Position numbers and translations under genes: made by a program. 64,000 nt of DNA from Candidatus Sumerlaeales bacterium (GTDB lineage: Bacteria > Sumerlaeota > Sumerlaeia > Sumerlaeales > Sumerlaeaceae): assembly GCA_038243585.1 (NCBI GenBank), contig JBBSQY010000002.1, positions 64,001-128,000 on the forward strand, read 5' to 3'. Shown here piece after piece: positions 35,954-46,658 of the stretch. The first letter of the stretch is position 1; the number at the start of each line of letters is the position of its first letter. The notes beneath the pieces are model-generated. The model ran no database searches. It saw nothing but the letters and a program-made list of their open reading frames with translations, and was not told the origin of the DNA.

Positions 35954-36053
35954 ATTGCGATGTCTCCTTCTGATCGAGCAGCTTCGGGCCTATGCAAAGG
36001 AACAGTAACGCGTCTGGTAAGGCTGTAAACTATTGATCTCAATGGGTTTGAAT

Positions 36054-36077
36054 TTGGTAGCGACGAGTGGAGTTGAA
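36054..36077 (-). repeat. att direct repeat (duplicated 3' end of tRNA-Met), distal copy
   Basis: TTGGTAGCGACGAGTGGAGTTGAA, identical to 46581-46604. Confidence 0.95.
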
Positions 36078-36187: not shown

Positions 36188-36251
36188 GCCACATATACGC
36201 CTTAGAGACTTTACCCTATTTACCCTGTTTACCCTGTTCTAAAAACAATGC
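36188..36251. repeat. Sub-terminal imperfect inverted repeat, left copy
   Basis: CACATATACGCCTTAGAGACTTTACCCTATTTACCCTGTTTACCCTGTT aligns to the reverse complement of 46379-46442. Confidence 0.8.
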
Positions 36252-37385
36252 CAGCCGGTTAATGACGACGCGCCTTAGCCGGTCCGGATCCATAAGCTCC
36301 GCATAATGCTTATCTGTCATCCCTGCCGGTGCATGGCCTATATAAGCGCCATAGTCTGACAATGCGACGTCGGCCTTTACGCATAGGTTAACGAATGTTT
36401 TTCTAACGTCCTTCGGATCCATGTCGGCGTATGCGGGAATGTCGAAATCCGCCGCCACGCTATTGAGTAGCCGGCGCAGGCTTAATCCAACGCTGTGGTG
36501 GGTCGCGTCAAATCCCTCGGTGTTCGTGACTACCAGCGCCTCAGGGGCCATCCTAGACAGCTCAGCGGCCATCCATGCAGAGACTGCCGGCAGGATAGGA
36601 ATGGATCGCGCACGATACTTGTTTTTCGACAGCTTAATGGATAGCATATTGCTTGTGAAATCGAAGTCGCCGACGCGCAGGCGGATAATTTCTTTAATGT
36701 TACACCCTACCAAACAGCCTAGAACAACAGCCCGTGGGATCGCACGGTTGACGCGCATATTAGCGCATCCCCATAAAAGCGCCACCTGGTCAGCGTTTAT
36801 GTAGTTTTTCTCCGGTGTGGATTCATCGGTTAAAAATCCGCTCTGGATTACCAGGGGATAGTACCGGCGCGGATCTGATCGTGCCTGGTTCTTTGCCGTC
36901 ATAGTCAGAACGCCGATGTAGTGCCGTATGCTCTTTGGCTTTAATCCCTGGTCATGTAGAAATTTGACATAATCCTGTGCTACCGCGCCCGTGACTTTTT
37001 CCCAATATGATATGTTGGGGCCATCACCTTCTAACCAGTTTATGAAGTATTTTTCAAACCTGCGAAGATCCGCACGACGGTCATCTGTTTTGGCTCTGGC
37101 GTGCGTAATGGCTTTTCTGATAGCGTCGCCGATTAGGTCGCCGTCCATCCGGTCCATAACATGAGAAAAGCGGGAGCCTAGAATGTCCCTAAGCTCCCGC
37201 GCCATCTTCTTCACTTCATCCGGCAGGGTAATTCCTGCCAGTTGCTTTTCCGTCTCCGCTTTTATGCCGGTGCTCTTCGACAGCCGTTTACCGGCAGTAT
37301 CACGATAAACTAAATAGTAGCGCTTATCACTACTCTGGATCCTTATAGTAACGGCTCCGATTTTTTCCACTGTTCGCAGGGTCAT
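36216..37385 (-). CDS. Tyrosine recombinase / integrase
   Basis: IIRLRVGDFDF, SKNKYRARSIP, DVRKTF, IGHAPAGMTDKHY; adjacent to the att repeat. Confidence 0.9.
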   Translation of the reverse strand: MTLRTVEKIGAVTIRIQSSDKRYYLVYRDTAGKRLSKSTGIKAETEKQLAGITLPDEVKKMARELRDILGSRFSHVMDRMDGDLIGDAIRKAITHARAKTDDRRADLRRFEKYFINWLEGDGPNISYWEKVTGAVAQDYVKFLHDQGLKPKSIRHYIGVLTMTAKNQARSDPRRYYPLVIQSGFLTDESTPEKNYINADQVALLWGCANMRVNRAIPRAVVLGCLVGCNIKEIIRLRVGDFDFTSNMLSIKLSKNKYRARSIPILPAVSAWMAAELSRMAPEALVVTNTEGFDATHHSVGLSLRRLLNSVAADFDIPAYADMDPKDVRKTFVNLCVKADVALSDYGAYIGHAPAGMTDKHYAELMDPDRLRRVVINRLALFLEQGKQGK

Positions 37386-37617
37386 GCTTTTTTTGTTTCA
37401 TCCTGACTGGTTTTAAGTCAATACTGGTTTTGGGATGGAGCAGGCTTTCCACTCTCTGCCGGCCTATTTCGTCCAAATAGTGAATGATGGTCCCGCCCCA
37501 ATACCTGCCCCGAATGGTAGCCAGGGGCGCACATTCGTCAGCGAGTTTGCGGCCTAGCATTATTTCGAGCTCAGCAGCGCCATACCAGCGGTATGGGCGA
37601 ATGATAGGTTTAAGCAT
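37330..37617 (-). CDS. Small putative excisionase/HTH-like protein
   Basis: 95 aa, basic, overlaps the primase stop and the integrase start; function inferred from position. Confidence 0.5.
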   Translation of the reverse strand: MLKPIIRPYRWYGAAELEIMLGRKLADECAPLATIRGRYWGGTIIHYLDEIGRQRVESLLHPKTSIDLKPVRMKQKKHDPANSGKNRSRYYKDPE

Positions 37618-40123
37618 GATTCACCGCCTGGGGGTTCATGTGGTACACTCTGGCAGGCTTCTTTGCCCCTGGTGATAGAATCTCCGCTTTGCGCAGGATG
37701 TGGCGCTCTTCAAGGTAGGAAAGCGCCTCGCTGAATATGCTTTCGTTTTTCATGCGCTTCTTTACCCGGTCCCACAAATCCGTGTGGCGGATGGGTGATT
37801 CTCCGGTACTGCCGGCAAGGTTGCGGATGTGCCTAAGTGCATATTTAGCATTCGACTGGACCGGGAGCTCCTTCACGATGCCGAGCACCTGGTCCGCACG
37901 ATACAGAAAATATGTTCCCAGCGTAATCGCGCTTTTCATCGTGTCAGCCGATATGGTCCGCCCTGCGTAATCGATGGGGAATTCTGCTACGTGCAGACAC
38001 GCCGCCAGGCGAAGGATCCTGCCGGCATGTTTAGCGCCCCACTGTGCAATGTCCTCTTCGCCGAAGTCACCCGTATCTGGGCAAAGTTTAGGCATGAAGT
38101 CTTGTCTGAAAGTACGAAATTCAGCAGCAGCGCCATCACTGAGTTTTAGGACTACACCATCGTTCGTATCATTTAGCAGGTGCGTAATTGTTTTAAGGTA
38201 TTTCTGTTTTATCGCCTCATCGATGGGGGGCGCATCTACTTTATAATTTGCAAAGTCAATGCTGCCACGCAGAAGGATATAACGCTGGATTACGCCGAGC
38301 CCTGTAAATGTGTCCTGGTTTATAACGCCGTCAAATGGCTTCGGTTGCACAAACTGCACGACAGATAAAAGTGGCGCTTCAAGTGTTTCATTCCCACCTG
38401 AAACGCGGTCCCGGACGTGCCTCTCTCCGTCATAGCATTTGGGAAATAATGTGCATGAGCTTTGCCCGTTGCTATACATCCCACCCATCACGTTAAACAG
38501 TTTGGAAGACTCAGCAGAAATAACGATCCCGCTTTCCCTGTTTTGCTTTTCGCCTAATGGCTTGAATAGTGATTCTTCGGTGAAATCCTCATATATAAGC
38601 CGCCTTGCATTCCGAGCCGGTAGGGCGTCCAATTCCGTTTCAAGGTCCGTGAGCTCCATTGCCAGCATTTTACGATCCGCAGAAGTGGACGCCTTATTTA
38701 CTTTTCGCACAACAGCCGCCTGCCGTGCGACAATTATCTTTTCTTCGTTGCCGGCAAGGATCCGCTCTTGTCTGGATTCGAGCTCATTCTGTTTTCCCCA
38801 AAGAACGGCAGGTTCTGAAATGGCTTCCAATGTCGCTGATTTTGTAGCGCCTGGGGGAAAGATTACCATCACCCATAAGTTTGTGTTTTCCTGCCAGTTT
38901 GTTTTGCCTTCAATTATCACACGCCGCTGGATCGTAGACGATAACATCCCCAACGCAATGGTCGCGGTTACTTCTACCGGCACGTTCTGTTGAACAGCCA
39001 GCTCCGCGGCGAAATCTCTTAACCAGGGTGAACCGTCGAATGACTGTAAGGGGAACGTCTCCGCGTCTTCGCCAAACATCTCACCCGGCGCTACCTGGTC
39101 AATGGATATCAGCTCCGGCCATTCCTCGACCTGGGCAACCGCCGGCTCCCATAGAACAGCTACCTTTAGGCGCTCATCATAACTCATTCCTGCCGGCTCT
39201 GGGTCGGCCAGGTCTTGGCCTTTTTCCATGCCATCGGTCGGCATGATCCGCACCCGCGTATTCATCTCATAAAGGTGTGCGGCTAGTCCGTCCATCGCAT
39301 CAGTGCCAGGCTCGTCAGCATCAGGAATTAAGAAGCCTTCAGAGTTCGCCAGTAGGCGCCAGTCTGTTTTGTTCCATGTTCCGGCGCTACCTTGCCAGGT
39401 GAGTATTAACAGATCAGGCCAGCGCTCCTGTGCGGCCTCCATTGTCTTGTGCCCTTCACATATTGCCCACGGCCTGGTATCTCCAGCAGCAATCTTGTCA
39501 GCCCCATAGAACGGCTTATTGTCCAGGCTACCGTGAAAGTGCCAGCCAGCTTTATATTTTCTGCCTTCGTGGGTGTGTTCTGTGTCGTAGTAGTAGCACG
39601 GTCTGAATTGCTTACGGTCAAACACTGGGGGATTGTCCCATCGGTAGTCATAATTGAACAGCGTGCCATCAGAATTTAAGAGGGTGTAGACGTGATCCGG
39701 CTTGCCTAATTTGTAAGCTTCTTTTGGCGGTGCAATATCTTCCGGCGGGTTACGATTTATGTTGCATATATCTGCCGGCAGGGGTGTAGTTTTGGTAATC
39801 CTTGTCGGGATACTTTTAGGTTTTGCCTCGGTTCGCGCCGGGGCAATTTCTTTTTTTGGGGGGCTTGTGTTTGTCGCTGTGTTCATCCGGTGGTTGCCTC
39901 TCAAATCGTCTCTGAAGTGGTCTGCTATTTCTTTGGTGGGGCATTTCATGGTAGTGCACTTGAACATCACATCCCCAGACTTCGCGCTATCCCATACCAG
40001 GCAGTTTAAGCCGCTGCCCTTATGGATGGGGCAATTGATCCTGTAGCAGCCTTTAGCGTCCGGTCTGGTAGATCGTGCGCTGCCGTTGCCGTACCTGTCG
40101 GCAATGTCTGCCGCGTTCATCAT
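37610..40123 (-). CDS. Replication protein: Zn finger + Toprim primase + DUF3987 (YfjI-like) domain
   Basis: CPIH...C...C; ICEGHKT and PDADEPG Toprim motifs; WQENTNLW, PPGATKS, LIYEDFTEESL, DRVSGG, GVIQRY. Confidence 0.82.
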   Translation of the reverse strand: MMNAADIADRYGNGSARSTRPDAKGCYRINCPIHKGSGLNCLVWDSAKSGDVMFKCTTMKCPTKEIADHFRDDLRGNHRMNTATNTSPPKKEIAPARTEAKPKSIPTRITKTTPLPADICNINRNPPEDIAPPKEAYKLGKPDHVYTLLNSDGTLFNYDYRWDNPPVFDRKQFRPCYYYDTEHTHEGRKYKAGWHFHGSLDNKPFYGADKIAAGDTRPWAICEGHKTMEAAQERWPDLLILTWQGSAGTWNKTDWRLLANSEGFLIPDADEPGTDAMDGLAAHLYEMNTRVRIMPTDGMEKGQDLADPEPAGMSYDERLKVAVLWEPAVAQVEEWPELISIDQVAPGEMFGEDAETFPLQSFDGSPWLRDFAAELAVQQNVPVEVTATIALGMLSSTIQRRVIIEGKTNWQENTNLWVMVIFPPGATKSATLEAISEPAVLWGKQNELESRQERILAGNEEKIIVARQAAVVRKVNKASTSADRKMLAMELTDLETELDALPARNARRLIYEDFTEESLFKPLGEKQNRESGIVISAESSKLFNVMGGMYSNGQSSCTLFPKCYDGERHVRDRVSGGNETLEAPLLSVVQFVQPKPFDGVINQDTFTGLGVIQRYILLRGSIDFANYKVDAPPIDEAIKQKYLKTITHLLNDTNDGVVLKLSDGAAAEFRTFRQDFMPKLCPDTGDFGEEDIAQWGAKHAGRILRLAACLHVAEFPIDYAGRTISADTMKSAITLGTYFLYRADQVLGIVKELPVQSNAKYALRHIRNLAGSTGESPIRHTDLWDRVKKRMKNESIFSEALSYLEERHILRKAEILSPGAKKPARVYHMNPQAVNHA

Positions 40124-41682: not shown

Positions 41683-41859
41683 GCCACTTTAGCAGTTGCC
41701 TGCGTGTGTTTGCACCGTCGGCACATGAACGAAAGCCAGCGGGCAATGATTGGCGCGAAGATCGCCAATATGGTGCGGGGTGAAAATCAGCATACGCAAA
41801 TTTGCGGAACCATATCCCAATCCGACGCCGCTGAACATCATATCCCCATCACTTCATGA
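41683..41859 (+). pseudogene. Fragment of a phage ParB-like/methyltransferase-associated HTH gene, opposite to element transcription
   Basis: The plus frame reads LHRRHMNESQRAMIGAKIANMVRGENQHTQICGTISQSDAAE, bounded by stops at 41680-41682 and 41857-41859. Confidence 0.6.
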
Positions 41860-43331
41860 CCTGGATTCCGTTCATTCAGCGTGAAGTTAATCGTGGATTC
41901 CTGCCCGGCGCGTCCGGTATTGGCCCGGTTGGCGGCTTGCGTCGCGTGAATATCCTCATTCGACATCCCGCCTCCCTGCAACGCACCAGCACCGAATTTT
42001 GCAACCATGTCAGCCTGTAGCTTTTTATCTTTCGTGGCATCCATCGCCGTTTTACCATGCGCCCTTAACCAGTTGTCCACGACGGCATTTGTGGAAATAG
42101 CTGTCTGGTTCATCGGGTTGGCGCGGTCGCTGTCGGCCGGGTACCGCGCCGTTGTCTTCGCATCATGAGCCGCTACCTTGTCACGGTAGCCCGTTTCATT
42201 CGCAGCAAATCCAGCCGCTTTTTCGCGCGCTTTTGCAGCCATCTCATCCGCGCCGAATAAGTCATAGACATTAGCCGCAAGATTCTCCGACTTGCCCATA
42301 ACACTATTATTAAACGCCCCGGCTTTGTTGTCCAGGTTCTTAATGTCACCGGCTTTTTCAGACATCGAGGAAACCAGCGCCGCAGCATTTACAGCAGCGG
42401 TGCCCAGGAAGTCAGAAAACGCCTTCGCGTCTTGCCCCATCTCTGCCCAATCAATGCTTTTGATCGTGCCGAACAGGTCTTTGGCGCTGTCTGCAATGTT
42501 CTCTCCAAATGCTTTGGTAAACTCGTCAACACCCATCTTCGCGTCACCGCTGATATACTGCACGAAGTCCACCAATTCGCCTTTAATGACATCAAACAAG
42601 GGAGCCGTCGACGCCTGCTTCATGTTATCGAAGAATGATCCCGCCGTGCTGGATAGCCCTTCCCATGTCGACGCCATCTGCATAACCAGTTCAGGCCCCG
42701 CGCCCATTTGTTTCAGTGCAGCATTGATCAGCTCCATACCCTCGAGGCCCTGGGCTTTTAATTCTTTTATAACACTACGAGATATATCAAACCGGCTTTG
42801 TAAACTTACATAGTCCCCGCCCATAGCCTCACGGATAGAGAATGCAGCACCTTCAAGCCCCTGCGCCGGATTAAGCGCCGCCAGAACTTCCGCAGTCTTA
42901 ACCAACTTCATCAGCTCTTCGCGTGAACCCTTCGCGCTGGAAATCAGCGCTTTGCCCGCTGTGATCATCTCGCCGGTGTCGAACGGCGTAACGTCAGCTT
43001 CCGTGCGAAGATCCATTACAATCTGTTTTGCAAGCGCCGCGTCCTTCGTAAACGCTGTAAACGTCGCTGTGGCCTGCTCAATCGAACTGTTGAGCGCCAA
43101 CCCATCTTTCACCATGGAACCAAACGCGACACCCGTAGCAGCCGCCGCAACACCCGCAGCAACGCCCATCCCGGCCAGAACCTTCGCAGCCGGTGCAAAC
43201 GCTTTCGCCACAGCCCGGCCTTCAGTCATTGCGTTATTCTTAAACCGGGTGAAACCTGTTTGCGCGCTCACTATACCCGCGCGAAATTCGGCGGCGTCTA
43301 ATTTAACTTTTGCTGTGACTTCTGCGCTCAT
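41838..43331 (-). CDS. Short tail tape-measure-like protein (497 aa)
   Basis: N-terminal VTAKVKLDAAEF; SIEQATATF...EADVTPFDTGEMITAGKAL (tape-measure N-terminal motif); STWEGLSST; Ala/Gly-rich helical composition. Confidence 0.8.
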   Translation of the reverse strand: MSAEVTAKVKLDAAEFRAGIVSAQTGFTRFKNNAMTEGRAVAKAFAPAAKVLAGMGVAAGVAAAATGVAFGSMVKDGLALNSSIEQATATFTAFTKDAALAKQIVMDLRTEADVTPFDTGEMITAGKALISSAKGSREELMKLVKTAEVLAALNPAQGLEGAAFSIREAMGGDYVSLQSRFDISRSVIKELKAQGLEGMELINAALKQMGAGPELVMQMASTWEGLSSTAGSFFDNMKQASTAPLFDVIKGELVDFVQYISGDAKMGVDEFTKAFGENIADSAKDLFGTIKSIDWAEMGQDAKAFSDFLGTAAVNAAALVSSMSEKAGDIKNLDNKAGAFNNSVMGKSENLAANVYDLFGADEMAAKAREKAAGFAANETGYRDKVAAHDAKTTARYPADSDRANPMNQTAISTNAVVDNWLRAHGKTAMDATKDKKLQADMVAKFGAGALQGGGMSNEDIHATQAANRANTGRAGQESTINFTLNERNPGHEVMGI

Positions 43332-43346
43332 AACGAATTACCTTTC

Positions 43347-43490
43347 AAAATAAAAATGCCGCCTGGGGCAGAGGGATCCCAGGCGGCGATTCGCGGGGAA
43401 ACGAGCGTAAACCCGCGAAGATAAAATAAGTTGGACGACGGCTAACCCTCGCCGATTAGCCGCCGCCCGCTCTTGACGGTTTCCCATCAA
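43347..43490 (-). ncRNA. Cluster of four hairpins; the last is an intrinsic terminator upstream of the TMP gene
   Basis: Stems at 43473-43490 (GAAA loop), 43433-43468, 43390-43419 and 43358-43387, followed by ATTTTTATTTT. Confidence 0.5.
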
Positions 43491-43496
43491 ACTTTG

Positions 43497-43676
43497 TTAC
43501 CGCCTGCGTACCAGGTCAGCCAATGGATCAGGCGACCTTGCATTGTCCTGGACGCGCTGGGTGTCGATATCCGTGCCCGCGCCCAACGAGGATAAACTCG
43601 AAAATCGCTGGACAGGTTCCGCCGATTCGTCATCAGCAGGTTTTGGCTCTTCTATGTCTTGGTAAAAATCTCTCAT
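43497..43676 (-). CDS. Unannotated 59-aa acidic protein, putative mini-scaffold
   Basis: ATG 43676 with GGAAAG upstream; MRDFYQDIEEPKPADDESAEPVQRFSSLSSLGAGTDIDTQRVQDNARSPDPLADLVRRR*; shorter than any ORF in the track. Confidence 0.65.
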   Translation of the reverse strand: MRDFYQDIEEPKPADDESAEPVQRFSSLSSLGAGTDIDTQRVQDNARSPDPLADLVRRR

Positions 43677-43687
43677 AATTTAATCTT

Positions 43688-43837
43688 TCCGAGTAGACGG
43701 ACGCCTCTTCCAAGACGCCCGCCCAACCCTATTTCGGAGCTATGGACGCAACGACAACGGCCATATTTTGACCGCCGGGCTACGCGGTTGAAGGTGTGCC
43801 CGGCGGCCTGATTCGTTCGCAGCAGGCAAGCGAATCA
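43688..43837 (-). ncRNA. Cluster of hairpins downstream of the capsid gene
   Basis: Stems at 43809-43837, 43770-43808, 43741-43765 and 43688-43738 (14-bp G-U-rich stem, GGAA loop). Confidence 0.5.
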
Positions 43838-43844
43838 AACGTGA

Positions 43845-44855
43845 TTACGGAGTCTCATCAGCGCTTATAAGGATAGAAGCCGGATAGCGGTCAGCCTCTA
43901 ACGGCTGTGCCACTGTGACCGGGTTCGCCGTACAAAAGCCAATTCGCGCGACCGCTTTAATTGCGATAGAGTCAGCTTGCATGAGATTCAGCATAATGTT
44001 TCCCGCCAAATCTTGGATCACGCCATCTTTGTGAACGCTGATATGGAGTTCCTCACGGACGCCCACCAGGTGTTTTGTGCGGTCGAACATGATCATTTCA
44101 ATGTCGGACGCGTCGGGGTTCTGTGGCGGGAAAACTCCGTCGACCCCGAAGGAAATTTCACGACCAAACAACCGGCCTTCCAGTGCCTCGCCGCTCTGAA
44201 GTTCCTCGGGAATGAAAAGCGGGCGTCCGAGCGTATCGGTTTCCGACATTAAATCGTACTCGAACCCCGGCCTAGCGATAGCGCCATTTAACTGGAAACC
44301 ATCCCGGCGCGACATCTTTAGCACGTTCATAATGTCCGTGCGTAGACCACCATTAGCCGCCGCCGTGTCGATAACCGTCACGTTACCGGCGCTCATCGCA
44401 CCAGCAGCAACATGAGCCGGCCAGACAATCGGCTTTTCAATTCCGAAGAAAATTGCCTTATCAATTGCCATCGCGATACTCTGGGCAATCGCCGGAATTA
44501 TTTCTTCCGTGAGATTGATCCCTCCAGCCTGAATGTCAGACATCAGCCGGCGCGGAAATGGTATGATGACGGCAATGTCGGCCACGTTCATGTCAATATT
44601 GGCCCATGATACATCGCTCGTCTGGATAAGCCGGGTATCATCTTCAGGTGTGCCGGTTTGGGTTAGCCAATAAGATTTCGGCAGCGCCGTCATAACCGGG
44701 AAAGATTTGTTCTGCGTCAAAATTGGAACGTGCTTGAAGAACCGCAATGCGGCCGACTGTTGCGTCGCCATCTTGAAAATTTTGTTGGAATGTTCGCATG
44801 GAACAAGGCCACCGGCAGAGGTTGCGTTGCGGTCTGTGATATCGTTGAAAGCCAT
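43845..44855 (-). CDS. Phage major capsid protein (HK97 fold, no delta domain)
   Basis: GGLVP..SNKIF, FPVMTALPKSYW, IAVIIPF, AIDKAIFFG..KP..WP, NLMQADSIAIKAVARIGF; RBS TAAGGAG. Confidence 0.9.
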   Translation of the reverse strand: MAFNDITDRNATSAGGLVPCEHSNKIFKMATQQSAALRFFKHVPILTQNKSFPVMTALPKSYWLTQTGTPEDDTRLIQTSDVSWANIDMNVADIAVIIPFPRRLMSDIQAGGINLTEEIIPAIAQSIAMAIDKAIFFGIEKPIVWPAHVAAGAMSAGNVTVIDTAAANGGLRTDIMNVLKMSRRDGFQLNGAIARPGFEYDLMSETDTLGRPLFIPEELQSGEALEGRLFGREISFGVDGVFPPQNPDASDIEMIMFDRTKHLVGVREELHISVHKDGVIQDLAGNIMLNLMQADSIAIKAVARIGFCTANPVTVAQPLEADRYPASILISADETP

Positions 44856-44946
44856 GAAAGTGGCTCCTTAATAGGGAGATCGCGGGAGGAATGGAATAGC
44901 CTATCAGTTACCTGTCAGCCATGACGTTTCAACCGCGTCGCCTTTA

Positions 44947-45459
44947 TTAACGACAGCTTGCTTCCAGGTCGCTCCCAATAATCCGATTTTGCATCATATC
45001 TGATAGTATTTCCGGCTGTGCAAATAAAGCCGTCCCGAAATCCTGTAGGCTTGCGAAAAGAGCACCCTCACGACGCCACGCACGACGCCGCATTTTCAGA
45101 ATATCCATCGCCTTATTTTTCGCGGATCCGAGAAAAAACGAATTCACGCTGCCGCTAAATTCAAACCCGGCAACCGGTAACCCGGTTCGCGGATTGAGAC
45201 GCCGGCATTGTTTAGGTTTTGCGCTCTCGAGTAGGTGCATCAAAATTTCATTTCGTGCGTCGTCTTGATCCTCCTGCGACAGTGAAACCTTGTACGCCCA
45301 TTGCTTCGCCAGTGGTAGCAGCAGGGCCGCAACGTCAGCCAGCAGGAATTCATTCTCTGGATCCCGCCGCAGCGCCACAATAGCGGCCTCCAGGTCAATG
45401 GCCTGTTGTGCGAAATCAATCACTGCGTGATGGCTACGGGGAGCGCAAACAGCAGGCAT
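44947..45459 (-). CDS. Sigma-70 region-2-like protein lacking region 4
   Basis: EDQDDARNEILMHLLE...FSGSVNSFFLGSAKNKAMDILKMRRR; RBS AGAAAGGA before ATG 45459. Confidence 0.6.
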   Translation of the reverse strand: MPAVCAPRSHHAVIDFAQQAIDLEAAIVALRRDPENEFLLADVAALLLPLAKQWAYKVSLSQEDQDDARNEILMHLLESAKPKQCRRLNPRTGLPVAGFEFSGSVNSFFLGSAKNKAMDILKMRRRAWRREGALFASLQDFGTALFAQPEILSDMMQNRIIGSDLEASCR

Positions 45460-45540
45460 AAGCAAATCCTTTCTTGTGTAAATGCTTACCCGTACCCGCC
45501 GCTTTCATGCAAGGTGAATCCGACAGTCAAGAGAAAAAAA

Positions 45541-46146
45541 TTATGCTTTCACCGGCGGGGCATCGCCCATCTTTTCAGGCATATAGTCGCTGAAGTCCAT
45601 CGTATCGCCGACGCATCCAGTTTCTACCCACTCCCTGGGCGGCAAACCAACATGGACGAACGTGATCGGGGTCTCCGTGTCATCCTTCGCCACAAGTTCC
45701 TGGTAGGCCTGAAAATCTTTGCTCAGCCGTTGGTCATAACTAATCCGGGCCTCGAGTAGCTTCCGTTTTTCCGATGTGTAAAAGCGCTTATCCGCCATTG
45801 TCTCAGCATCAGCCAGGCATTGATCAAGACGAAGGGCCTCCACATCCAGCGCCACAAGCGTGTTTTCGTGCCGATCCAGCATGAAAGCCAGCCGCGCCTT
45901 GCCACTGGATAGACTCTCAGCCAGGTTCACCGGATCGCCCTCGGCAATAGCCAGAACAATCGCCGGTGTATGCGAATGTACCCTTGCCGTAGTCTTACCC
46001 ACCGGCGGCTCATCGCCACGAACCCGCGCACGGTACCGCCGTTTACTGTCAGCCCGGCATTTCTTGCAATCGCCCGCAGCATAACGCTCTGAGGTGCCAC
46101 ACTTCGCGCAAATCTTGTCATTATCCATGCCAGGTATTAACGCCAT
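45541..46146 (-). CDS. Zn-finger / coiled-coil protein, possible terminase small subunit
   Basis: CAKC...CKKC, basic patch, coiled-coil core, C-terminal beta strand PITFVHVG; first gene of the structural module. Confidence 0.5.
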   Translation of the reverse strand: MALIPGMDNDKICAKCGTSERYAAGDCKKCRADSKRRYRARVRGDEPPVGKTTARVHSHTPAIVLAIAEGDPVNLAESLSSGKARLAFMLDRHENTLVALDVEALRLDQCLADAETMADKRFYTSEKRKLLEARISYDQRLSKDFQAYQELVAKDDTETPITFVHVGLPPREWVETGCVGDTMDFSDYMPEKMGDAPPVKA

Positions 46147-46378: not shown

Positions 46379-46442
46379 GCGTTGGTTTAGCAATAGGGTA
46401 AATAGGGTAAACAGGGGAACTCTCTTAAAGCGTATATGTGAC
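46379..46442. repeat. Sub-terminal imperfect inverted repeat, right copy
   Basis: AATAGGGTAAATAGGGTAAACAGGGGAACTCTCTTAAAGCGTATATGTG; its reverse complement matches 36188-36251. Confidence 0.8.
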
Positions 46443-46581
46443 ATCACCACATACGCCCTACACCCAGTTTACACCCAGTTGTTCGTGGTGTGGTGGGTGT
46501 ATCTTGCCTGTACCTTCAATGTGGTTAAAGTGGTTATCGCTTGATATAGCTGGGGATCAGGTAGTTGGGTGATAGGGAAAT

Positions 46582-46658
46582 TGGTAGCGACGAGTGGAGT
46601 TGAACCACTGACCTAAGGGTTATGAGTCCTTCGCTCTAACCACCTGAGCTACGCCGCC
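46582..46658 (-). tRNA. tRNA-Met(CAT), elongator; integration target
   Basis: GGCGGCGTAGCTCAGGTGGTTAGAGCGAAGGACTCATAACCCTTAGGTCAGTGGTTCAACTCCACTCGTCGCTACCA; G2-C71 and C3-G70 favour Met over Ile2. Confidence 0.93.

What the first reader, a model, noticed from the sequence alone, without database searches (positions are those of the whole stretch)
43688..43837. Back-to-back G-U-rich hairpins between the capsid gene and the mini-ORF: candidate structured RNA
Seen on the minus strand: TGATTCG/CGAATCA; GGCCGCCGGGC/GCCCGGCGGTC; TATGG/CCATA; and TGGGCGGGCGTCTT-GGAA-GAGGCGTCCGTCTA. The last is a 14-bp stem with five G-U pairs and a GNRA loop, enclosed by TCCGA/TCGGA, which overlaps the RBS of the 59-aa ORF. 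The mismatches resolve as G-U only on the transcribed strand, and no U-tract follows. Inference: selection acts at RNA level, for example capsid mRNA stabilisation or processing, stoichiometry control, or a processed ncRNA used in assembly.
Basis: partly seen in the sequence, partly recalled or inferred. Interest (0 to 1): 0.7.

Follow-up and report, generated by a model that had tools for sequence, protein, structure and literature searches.

The report
Capsid-leader-pairing RNA in a phage satellite
A cluster of RNA hairpins just after the capsid gene of a small phage-parasite element is real and carries two exposed stretches that match the same gene's leader, so it may fold back to control capsid production, though this rests on one sequence and folding predictions only.

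Summary
The four hairpins are present as described (minus strand z about -4, plus strand about -1). Only H4 and H3 are strand-specific; the stem enclosing the mini-ORF's ribosome site is minor, and the 59-aa ORF is unproven. They lie in the capsid gene's 3' region in a 10.55-kb tRNA-integrated satellite-like element (integrase, primase, capsid, tape measure; no portal or large terminase found).

New: two exposed segments match the capsid leader. The H2 loop matches a site 73-87 nt upstream (14/15), and a linker matches the Shine-Dalgarno region (12/14). The joint match beats all 1925 other host genes and 60 phage capsid loci, narrowly and post hoc; predicted net binding is modest.

Best reading (0.4): a C4/CI-like feedback RNA or long-range pseudoknot tuning capsid translation. 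Main rival (0.3): plain mRNA stabiliser or processing element. No Rfam match. No homologous DNA was found, so covariation is untested; no RNA data. An earlier scan note on other DNA (e1-205908) reported similar logic and gave me the C4 lead.

The parts
43809..43837 (-). H1 hairpin (7 + 4 bp), 8 nt after the capsid stop codon
   Evidence: folds equally on both strands
43770..43808 (-). H2 hairpin, 11-bp GC-rich stem with a 17-nt loop (43797-43781)
   Evidence: (pair probabilities 0.97-1.0)
43778..43792 (-). Segment A': 11 loop bases plus 4, complementary (14/15) to site A in the capsid leader
   Evidence: (I15)
43741..43765 (-). H3 hairpin (5 + 3 bp)
43727..43740 (-).
   Evidence: (cofold)
43694..43725 (-). 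H4 hairpin: 14 bp, five G-U pairs, GNRA loop; strongly strand-specific
   Evidence: -21.4 vs -5.3 kcal/mol
43497..43676 (-). 59-codon ORF, in frame with the capsid gene but with an in-frame stop between them; coding status unresolved
   Evidence: frames; no homologue; codon score ambiguous
43358..43493 (-). Second hairpin block H5-H8 before the tape-measure gene; H6 (43468-43433) and H8 (43388-43358) are followed by U-rich tails (terminator-like)
   Evidence: (z -5.61)
44928..44942 (-). Site A in the capsid leader, 73-87 nt before the AUG; can also pair locally with the capsid start codon region
44863..44876 (-). Site B: capsid Shine-Dalgarno region (SD at 44869-44864)
43845..44855 (-). HK97-type major capsid protein, 336 aa
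41838..43331 (-). Tape-measure-like protein, 497 aa
36050..46604 (-). Whole satellite-like element between att repeats (36050-36077, 46577-46604) at a tRNA 3' end; integrase 36216-37385, DUF3987 primase/helicase 37610-40123

Best explanation
The hairpin block is a post-transcriptional control module of the satellite's late (capsid - mini-ORF - tape measure) transcript. Shown from sequence and prediction: stable hairpins present two single-stranded segments, A' (H2 loop) and B' (H3-H4 linker), complementary to site A and to the Shine-Dalgarno region B of the capsid leader. Inferred: the loop nucleates pairing at A, and B' then covers the ribosome site. This could happen in cis, where the order A-B-(capsid ORF)-A'-B' is that of an H-type long-range pseudoknot enclosing the whole ORF, or in trans after the block is cut out at its AU-rich flanks by the host's RNase Y/J machinery and protected by H1 and H4. 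The result is feedback on capsid synthesis (most likely repression), while terminator-like stems H6/H8 keep tape-measure mRNA low. It works like the two-loop C4/CI antisense RNAs but is not a C4 family member.
For: Strand-specific stable fold. A'/A 14 of 15 pairs: 0 of 1500 leader shuffles reach it, 1 of 899 other sampled host genes and 0 of 60 phage capsid loci. Joint A+B score 21.5 exceeds all 1925 other host genes (best 21.0), all 60 capsid loci (best 18), and ranks first among 1926 host 5' windows and 674 element windows. It stays in the top 0.5% under 7 other scorings (0-3 of about 600). Each segment's best duplex within the element is the capsid leader. A' is accessible: the most unpaired of the 5 host cases with 11 or more contiguous pairs, and among the top 10 of 158 windows of the block. 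The B pairing appears in the cofold minimum-energy structure, 11 kcal/mol below the separate folds. The a'-upstream, b'-on-RBS logic is the one described for C4 (PMC5320573 section 16). Host has RNase Y, RNase J, RNase III and Rho.
Against: One sequence only: no homologous DNA, so no covariation. The statistic was chosen after seeing the match and wins by a small margin; the host nulls use script-called ORFs whose first ATG is not always the true start. Net energies after opening costs are modest: B about -4, A (11 bp) about -4.5 to -8, A (15 bp) about -2 to +2 kcal/mol. In the fold of the whole transcript the B helix has probability 0-0.016 and the A helix 0, though the program cannot model pseudoknots. 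The same-order geometry makes the two helices cross. A'/A might instead activate, since A can sequester the start codon (0-14% of the ensemble with upstream sequence, 98% for a short leader). Part of A is shared with a motif before the replication operon, and B/B' share a core with the att-flanking repeats, which allows DNA-level readings.
Confidence: 0.4

Rival explanations
1. Local mRNA stabiliser, processing or pause element only: the hairpins protect the 3' end of a capsid mRNA (or the 5' end of the downstream fragment) so that capsid outnumbers tape measure; the leader complementarity is chance.
For: Stable, partly strand-specific hairpins without a U-tract; terminator-like H6/H8 downstream; host RNase Y/J/III; 3 of 60 ordinary phage capsid genes have equally stable 3' structure; weak net pairing energies.
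Against: It does not explain a 17-nt open loop and a linker that both match the same gene's leader, one of them at its Shine-Dalgarno region.
Confidence: 0.3
2. The matches are DNA sites: A/A' is an operator or promoter box for one of the element's small DNA-binding or sigma-like proteins, B/B' an integrase arm-type core; the hairpins are incidental or a separate feature.
For: An 11-mer and a 9-mer recur together before both the capsid gene and the replication operon; the 11-mer occurs only 3 times in the genome, twice here. B and B' share a 7-9-nt core with the att-flanking repeats.
Against: The spacing between the two half-motifs differs (11 vs 3 nt), which is unusual for one protein site (inference). 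A' sits exactly in an open loop. H4's G-U pattern works only as RNA.
Confidence: 0.1
3. Neutral: GC-rich intergenic sequence that folds by chance or is a decayed remnant.
For: 24 of 400 host 3' windows reach z <= -4; a window inside the integrase gene reaches z -4.86.
Against: Both intergenic stretches around the mini-ORF are among the top 3 of 142 windows of the element; z and strand asymmetry together occur in 1 of 400 host windows; flanking genes are intact.
Confidence: 0.12
4. A structural or packaging RNA (pRNA-like), or a single ~410-490-nt ncRNA spanning both hairpin blocks with a non-coding middle, used in assembly or aimed at helper-phage mRNAs like SviR.
For: The whole 526-nt stretch folds at z -5.3; the mini-ORF's coding score is ambiguous; satellite sRNAs that hit helper transcripts exist (SviR preprint).
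Against: No Rfam match; no portal or packaging ATPase found in the element; no helper capsid or TerL_ATPase found in this 90%-complete genome, so helper targets could not be tested.
Confidence: 0.08

Closest known systems
C4 antisense RNA of phages P1/P7 (Rfam RF01695)
   Same: Same-strand structured RNA with two single-stranded elements, one covering the ribosome site and one binding further upstream (PMC5320573 section 16); a small ORF follows (P1 icd, recalled).
   Different: No covariance-model match; about 150 nt in four hairpins, not a 77-nt three-stem fold; the predicted target is the capsid leader 1.1 kb upstream, not an immunity operon; RNase P processing untested.
CI RNA of satellite phage P4
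   Same: Satellite-encoded RNA pairing with a site upstream in its own transcript (seqA; passage of PMC4825925).
   Different: CI causes premature termination of the replication operon and has a second, downstream target (seqC). Here no full downstream target was found and the operon is structural.
OppZ and CarZ, autoregulatory 3'UTR-derived sRNAs of Vibrio cholerae
   Same: RNA from the 3' end of a transcript pairs with the same transcript to inhibit translation; proposed to set stoichiometry (PMC7398697 abstract and section 17).
   Different: Those are released by RNase E and, per the paper's keywords and methods headings, studied with Hfq. Neither family was found in this genome (90% complete). 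The element here is heavily structured with loop-presented seeds.
SviR of the PLE satellite
   Same: Satellite sRNA acting on satellite operons independently of Hfq/ProQ (preprint 10.1101/2022.04.08.487710, abstract and passages); PLEs also carry their own tape-measure gene (PMC12987554 passages).
   Different: SviR is a trans-acting intergenic sRNA with phage targets. No sequence comparison with SviR was made, and helper targets are untestable here.
Long-range pseudoknot of the E. coli infC-rpmI (L20) operator
   Same: Translation control involving a long-range pseudoknot across coding sequence (passage of PMC3616713).
   Different: Protein-bound, and encloses far less sequence (recalled); here the whole 1-kb capsid ORF would lie in the loop and no binding protein is known.

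Membership tests
C4 antisense RNA (RF01695) | Match to the covariance model | tested here: not met
   No hit at gathering score or at E <= 10 over 43250-45000. The genome-wide RF01695 search was uninformative because its controls were also blank.
C4 antisense RNA (RF01695) | About 77-nt fold of three stems | tested here: not met
   About 150 nt, four consecutive hairpins; only a weak, window-dependent enclosing stem.
C4 antisense RNA (RF01695) | Two single-stranded elements, one on the target RBS and one upstream of it | tested here: met
   By prediction only: A'/A and B'/B.
C4 antisense RNA (RF01695) | Released from a precursor by RNase P | not testable with these tools
   No RNA data.
C4 / P4 CI immunity RNAs | Targets the immunity or replication operon, with a second downstream site | tested here: not met
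   Best target is the capsid leader; only a 7-nt A-like match before the replication operon.
Intrinsic terminator (H1-H4) | Hairpin followed by a U-tract | tested here: not met
   Not called; H4 is followed by a purine-rich stretch. H6 and H8 of the second block do qualify.
RNase E/Hfq-type 3'UTR-derived autoregulatory sRNA (OppZ, CarZ) | Pairs with the RBS of its own transcript | tested here: met
   Predicted B'/B pairing.
RNase E/Hfq-type 3'UTR-derived autoregulatory sRNA (OppZ, CarZ) | Host RNase E and Hfq | tested here: not met
   PF10150 and PF17209 not found in the 89.7%-complete genome; controls rang.
Prohead (packaging) RNA | Rfam match; adjacent portal and packaging ATPase | tested here: not met
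Tail assembly chaperone G/T (for the mini-ORF) | Chaperone-like ORF pair right before the tape-measure gene | tested here: inconclusive
   Related phage tape-measure genes have such ORFs; the 59-aa ORF gave no tblastn hit to those loci, a weak test for so short a query.
Conserved structured RNA (any) | Covariation among homologues | not testable with these tools
   Homologous proteins exist but no DNA around them could be fetched.

The most novel reading that the evidence does not exclude
An uncatalogued satellite RNA device in which the 3' region of the capsid gene folds back through two exposed seeds onto the same gene's leader, as a long-range pseudoknot enclosing the whole ORF or as a processed Hfq-independent C4-like RNA, and so meters capsid against tape-measure synthesis in a family of capsid-plus-tape-measure satellites.
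Probability: 0.3. Interest if true: 0.7.

Novelty: new variant of a known kind. Interest (0 to 1): 0.5.

Why it matters
Known two-loop antisense RNAs of phages and satellites (C4, CI) control immunity or replication operons. If this reading holds, the same logic is used on a structural gene, in a satellite that carries its own capsid and tape-measure genes and in a host where Hfq and RNase E were not found. It would offer a compact, testable answer to how a satellite makes many capsid subunits and few tape-measure copies from one operon and keeps capsid off until a helper arrives. It would also suggest scanning phage genomes for 3'-to-5' fold-back pairs, which single-locus RNA motif searches miss. 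My 9 answered paper searches (listings read) showed no such case; subscription journals are largely not held.

Tried and rejected
Rfam: only three tRNAs in the window; three chance-level hits on the plus strand at E 1.3-5. Homologous DNA: none found with capsid queries (one search gave one 30% phage locus; one search gave 80 loci at 31-36%), tape-measure queries (two searches gave 80 and 28 loci), other element proteins, the motif or the intergenic DNA (one 26-nt chance-level hit). Of these loci 4 carried both capsid and tape-measure genes, 4-5 kb apart, none adjacent; the 34 I listed ORF by ORF mostly showed ordinary tail modules (six gave no listing). Ten primase- or integrase-related islands in this and related genomes lacked capsid and tape-measure genes. 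No RNA holder listed, which is no evidence on expression. Readthrough from capsid into the mini-ORF is rejected: in frame, but blocked by a stop 35 codons on. A simple inverted duplication of the leader is rejected because A' and B' lie in the same order as A and B. A repeated host element is rejected: no other copy in the genome. Mini-ORF: no homologue; codon score at or above only 46 of 800 true frames and reached by 192 of 623 wrong open frames. A single-sequence fold of the sigma-like ORF was unusable (pLDDT 38). The primary C4 and CI papers were not held. The supplement of PMC5737381 could not be read; it may describe motifs downstream of capsid genes (a Mu-gpT downstream element is recalled, not seen).

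Full report
Observation. H4 is a 14-bp stem with five G-U pairs and a GGAA loop. The region folds at -78.4 kcal/mol, z -4.35, 0 of 200 shuffles, against z -1.12 on the plus strand; the intergenic stretch alone gives -4.28 and -1.34, and -3.7 in a 40-shuffle rerun. Three qualifications apply. The strand asymmetry comes from H4 (-21.4 vs -5.3) and H3; H1 and H2 are symmetric. The stem said to enclose H4 and cover the mini-ORF's ribosome site has probability 0.22-0.39, and that site stays mostly paired, with the ORF's own first codons, even when the stem is blocked. A z of -4 or lower is reached by 24 of 400 sampled host 3' windows and 3 of 60 phage capsid 3' windows, but only 1 of 400 and 0 of 60 also show the same strand asymmetry (12-15 shuffles each, so noisy).

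Context. The hairpins lie in a 10.55-kb element bounded by a 27/28 direct repeat matching the 3' end of a tRNA (36050-36077, 46577-46604; anticodon CAT read by eye). Of 14 ORFs scanned, one is an integrase, one a DUF3987 primase/helicase and one an HK97-type capsid protein. The 497-aa ORF matches annotated tape-measure proteins, and its relatives sit in phage tail modules. No portal or large terminase was found among these ORFs; the genome (89.7% complete) gave no TerL_ATPase match and no second capsid. PLE satellites and some unrelated ones carry tape-measure genes (PMC12987554, passages). Gene order on the minus strand is capsid, block 1 (this finding), 59-codon ORF, block 2, tape measure. 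Block 2 is more stable still (z -5.61) and has two terminator-like stems. The two blocks rank first and third among 142 windows of the element.

The new element. A repeat scan showed a 15-nt inverted repeat joining the H2 loop to the capsid leader. Segment A' (43792-43778) pairs 14 of 15 with site A (44942-44928); the 11 contiguous pairs lie wholly in the loop. No leader shuffle of 1500 reached 14 matches; 7 of 1500 reached 11 contiguous. Cofolding then showed a second pairing, B' (43740-43727) with B (44876-44863), 5 + 7 bp around a 2x2 loop, covering the GGAG core of the capsid Shine-Dalgarno sequence. The summed score of the two best non-overlapping matches (21.5) is above all 1925 other script-called host genes (best 21.0) and all 60 phage capsid loci (best 18). 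This block also scores highest against its own leader among 1926 host 5' windows and 674 windows of the element. Seven other scorings left 0, 0, 3, 1, 0, 1 and 0 of about 600 sampled genes at or above it. Five of 1926 genes have 11 or more contiguous 5'/3' pairs, and this one is the most accessible.

Against it. The test was built after the match was seen and the margin is thin. Duplex energies are -17.2 (A, 11 bp), -23.2 (A, 15 bp) and -18.1 (B) kcal/mol, but opening costs leave about -4.5 to -8, -2 to +2 and -4. In whole-transcript folds B has probability at most 0.016 and A none, though loop-loop pairing cannot be modelled. A' and B' are in the same order as A and B, so the helices cross: in cis this is H-type pseudoknot order with the capsid ORF in the loop; in trans a double kissing geometry. 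Site A can also pair with the capsid start codon region (0-14% of the ensemble with upstream sequence, 98% for a short leader), so the sign of regulation is open. An 11-mer plus 9-mer around site A recurs before the replication operon with different spacing; the 11-mer occurs 3 times in the genome, twice in this element. B and B' share a short core with the att-flanking repeats. These leave a DNA-site reading open.

Homologues. Close relatives exist as proteins: three capsids at 48-53% identity and about seven short tape-measure proteins at 35-65%, all single Logan or JGI records. No DNA around them could be obtained from viral, metagenome, genome, phage or plasmid collections, or from 74 other genomes of the phylum. 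None of the fetched loci had capsid and tape-measure genes adjacent, and those fetched up to one search had no match to the intergenic DNA. Covariation is therefore untested. No RNA run is listed, which says nothing on expression. The mini-ORF has no homologue and an ambiguous codon score.

Mechanism. Shown: hairpins, accessible seeds, complementarity, terminator-like stems downstream, host RNase Y, J, III and Rho, Hfq and RNase E/G not found. Inferred: the late transcript mostly ends in block 2, so capsid mRNA exceeds tape-measure mRNA; block 1 survives as a protected 3' domain or is cut out at its AU-rich flanks; the H2 loop docks at A and B' covers the ribosome site, giving feedback on capsid synthesis. 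I put this at 0.4, a purely local stabiliser or processing element at 0.3, chance at 0.12, DNA sites at 0.1 and a structural or helper-directed RNA at 0.08.

Comparison. It works like C4, whose b' loop partly occludes the ribosome site while a' binds upstream (PMC5320573, section 16 read), and like P4 CI RNA pairing with seqA (PMC4825925, passage). It is not a member: no Rfam match, different size, fold and target. OppZ and CarZ give the precedent for autoregulation from a 3' UTR (PMC7398697, abstract and section 17), SviR for a satellite sRNA (preprint abstract and passages), and the L20 operator for a long-range pseudoknot (PMC3616713, passages). The C4 lead came from the unchecked note e1-205908 on an unrelated plasmid; it is not independent support. 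The primary C4 and CI papers were not held. The supplement of PMC5737381 could not be read and may bear on known motifs downstream of capsid genes. From PMC2864571, PMC5737381 and PMC10690425 I saw only passages.

Verdict. A real, uncatalogued structured region with a statistically suggestive two-site match to its own capsid leader; most likely a new variant of known RNA-based control, resting on one sequence. Interest 0.5; 0.7 if the fold-back regulation is confirmed.

Noticed in passing
window 43358-43493 (-): Second hairpin block, more stable than the one reported (z -5.6), with a GNRA-capped H5, a strand-specific H6 and two terminator-like stems just before the tape-measure gene.
   Followed up: partly
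window 44956-44926 and 40826-40804 (-): Shared bipartite motif (11-mer plus 9-mer, spacers 11 and 3 nt) before the capsid gene and before the replication operon; the 11-mer occurs 3 times in the 3.4-Mb genome. No good RNA partner for the 11-mer was found in the element.
   Followed up: partly
window 36190-36251 and 46379-46440: 62-nt inverted repeats with tandem 10-nt units inside both att sites, probably integrase arm-type sites.
   Followed up: no
window 43392-43378 and 37632-37618 (-): The 5' arm of H8 is complementary (13/15) to the sequence directly before the start of the 95-aa ORF upstream of the integrase; may be chance.
   Followed up: partly
window 44947-45465 (-): 172-aa ORF just before the capsid gene with a weak sigma-70 region 2 resemblance (Pfam E 0.086; Atlas clusters at 0.94-0.96); candidate late-gene activator.
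   Followed up: partly
window 45541-46146 (-): 201-aa ORF with an N-terminal four-cysteine zinc-finger-like motif and a helical body; small-terminase-like by position (inference); weak PHROG hit to endonuclease VII.
   Followed up: no
window 41838-41880 (-): The short tape-measure homologues P0156-P0163 share a distinctive C-terminal motif not seen in the phage homologues listed; a possible marker for this satellite family.
   Followed up: partly
window 37125-37274 (-): Strongly folding window (z -4.86) inside the 5' part of the integrase gene.
   Followed up: no
L219 (G000:C75:9811-10431): A second, contig-end integrase fragment 39-41% identical to this element's integrase in the same genome.
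   Followed up: no
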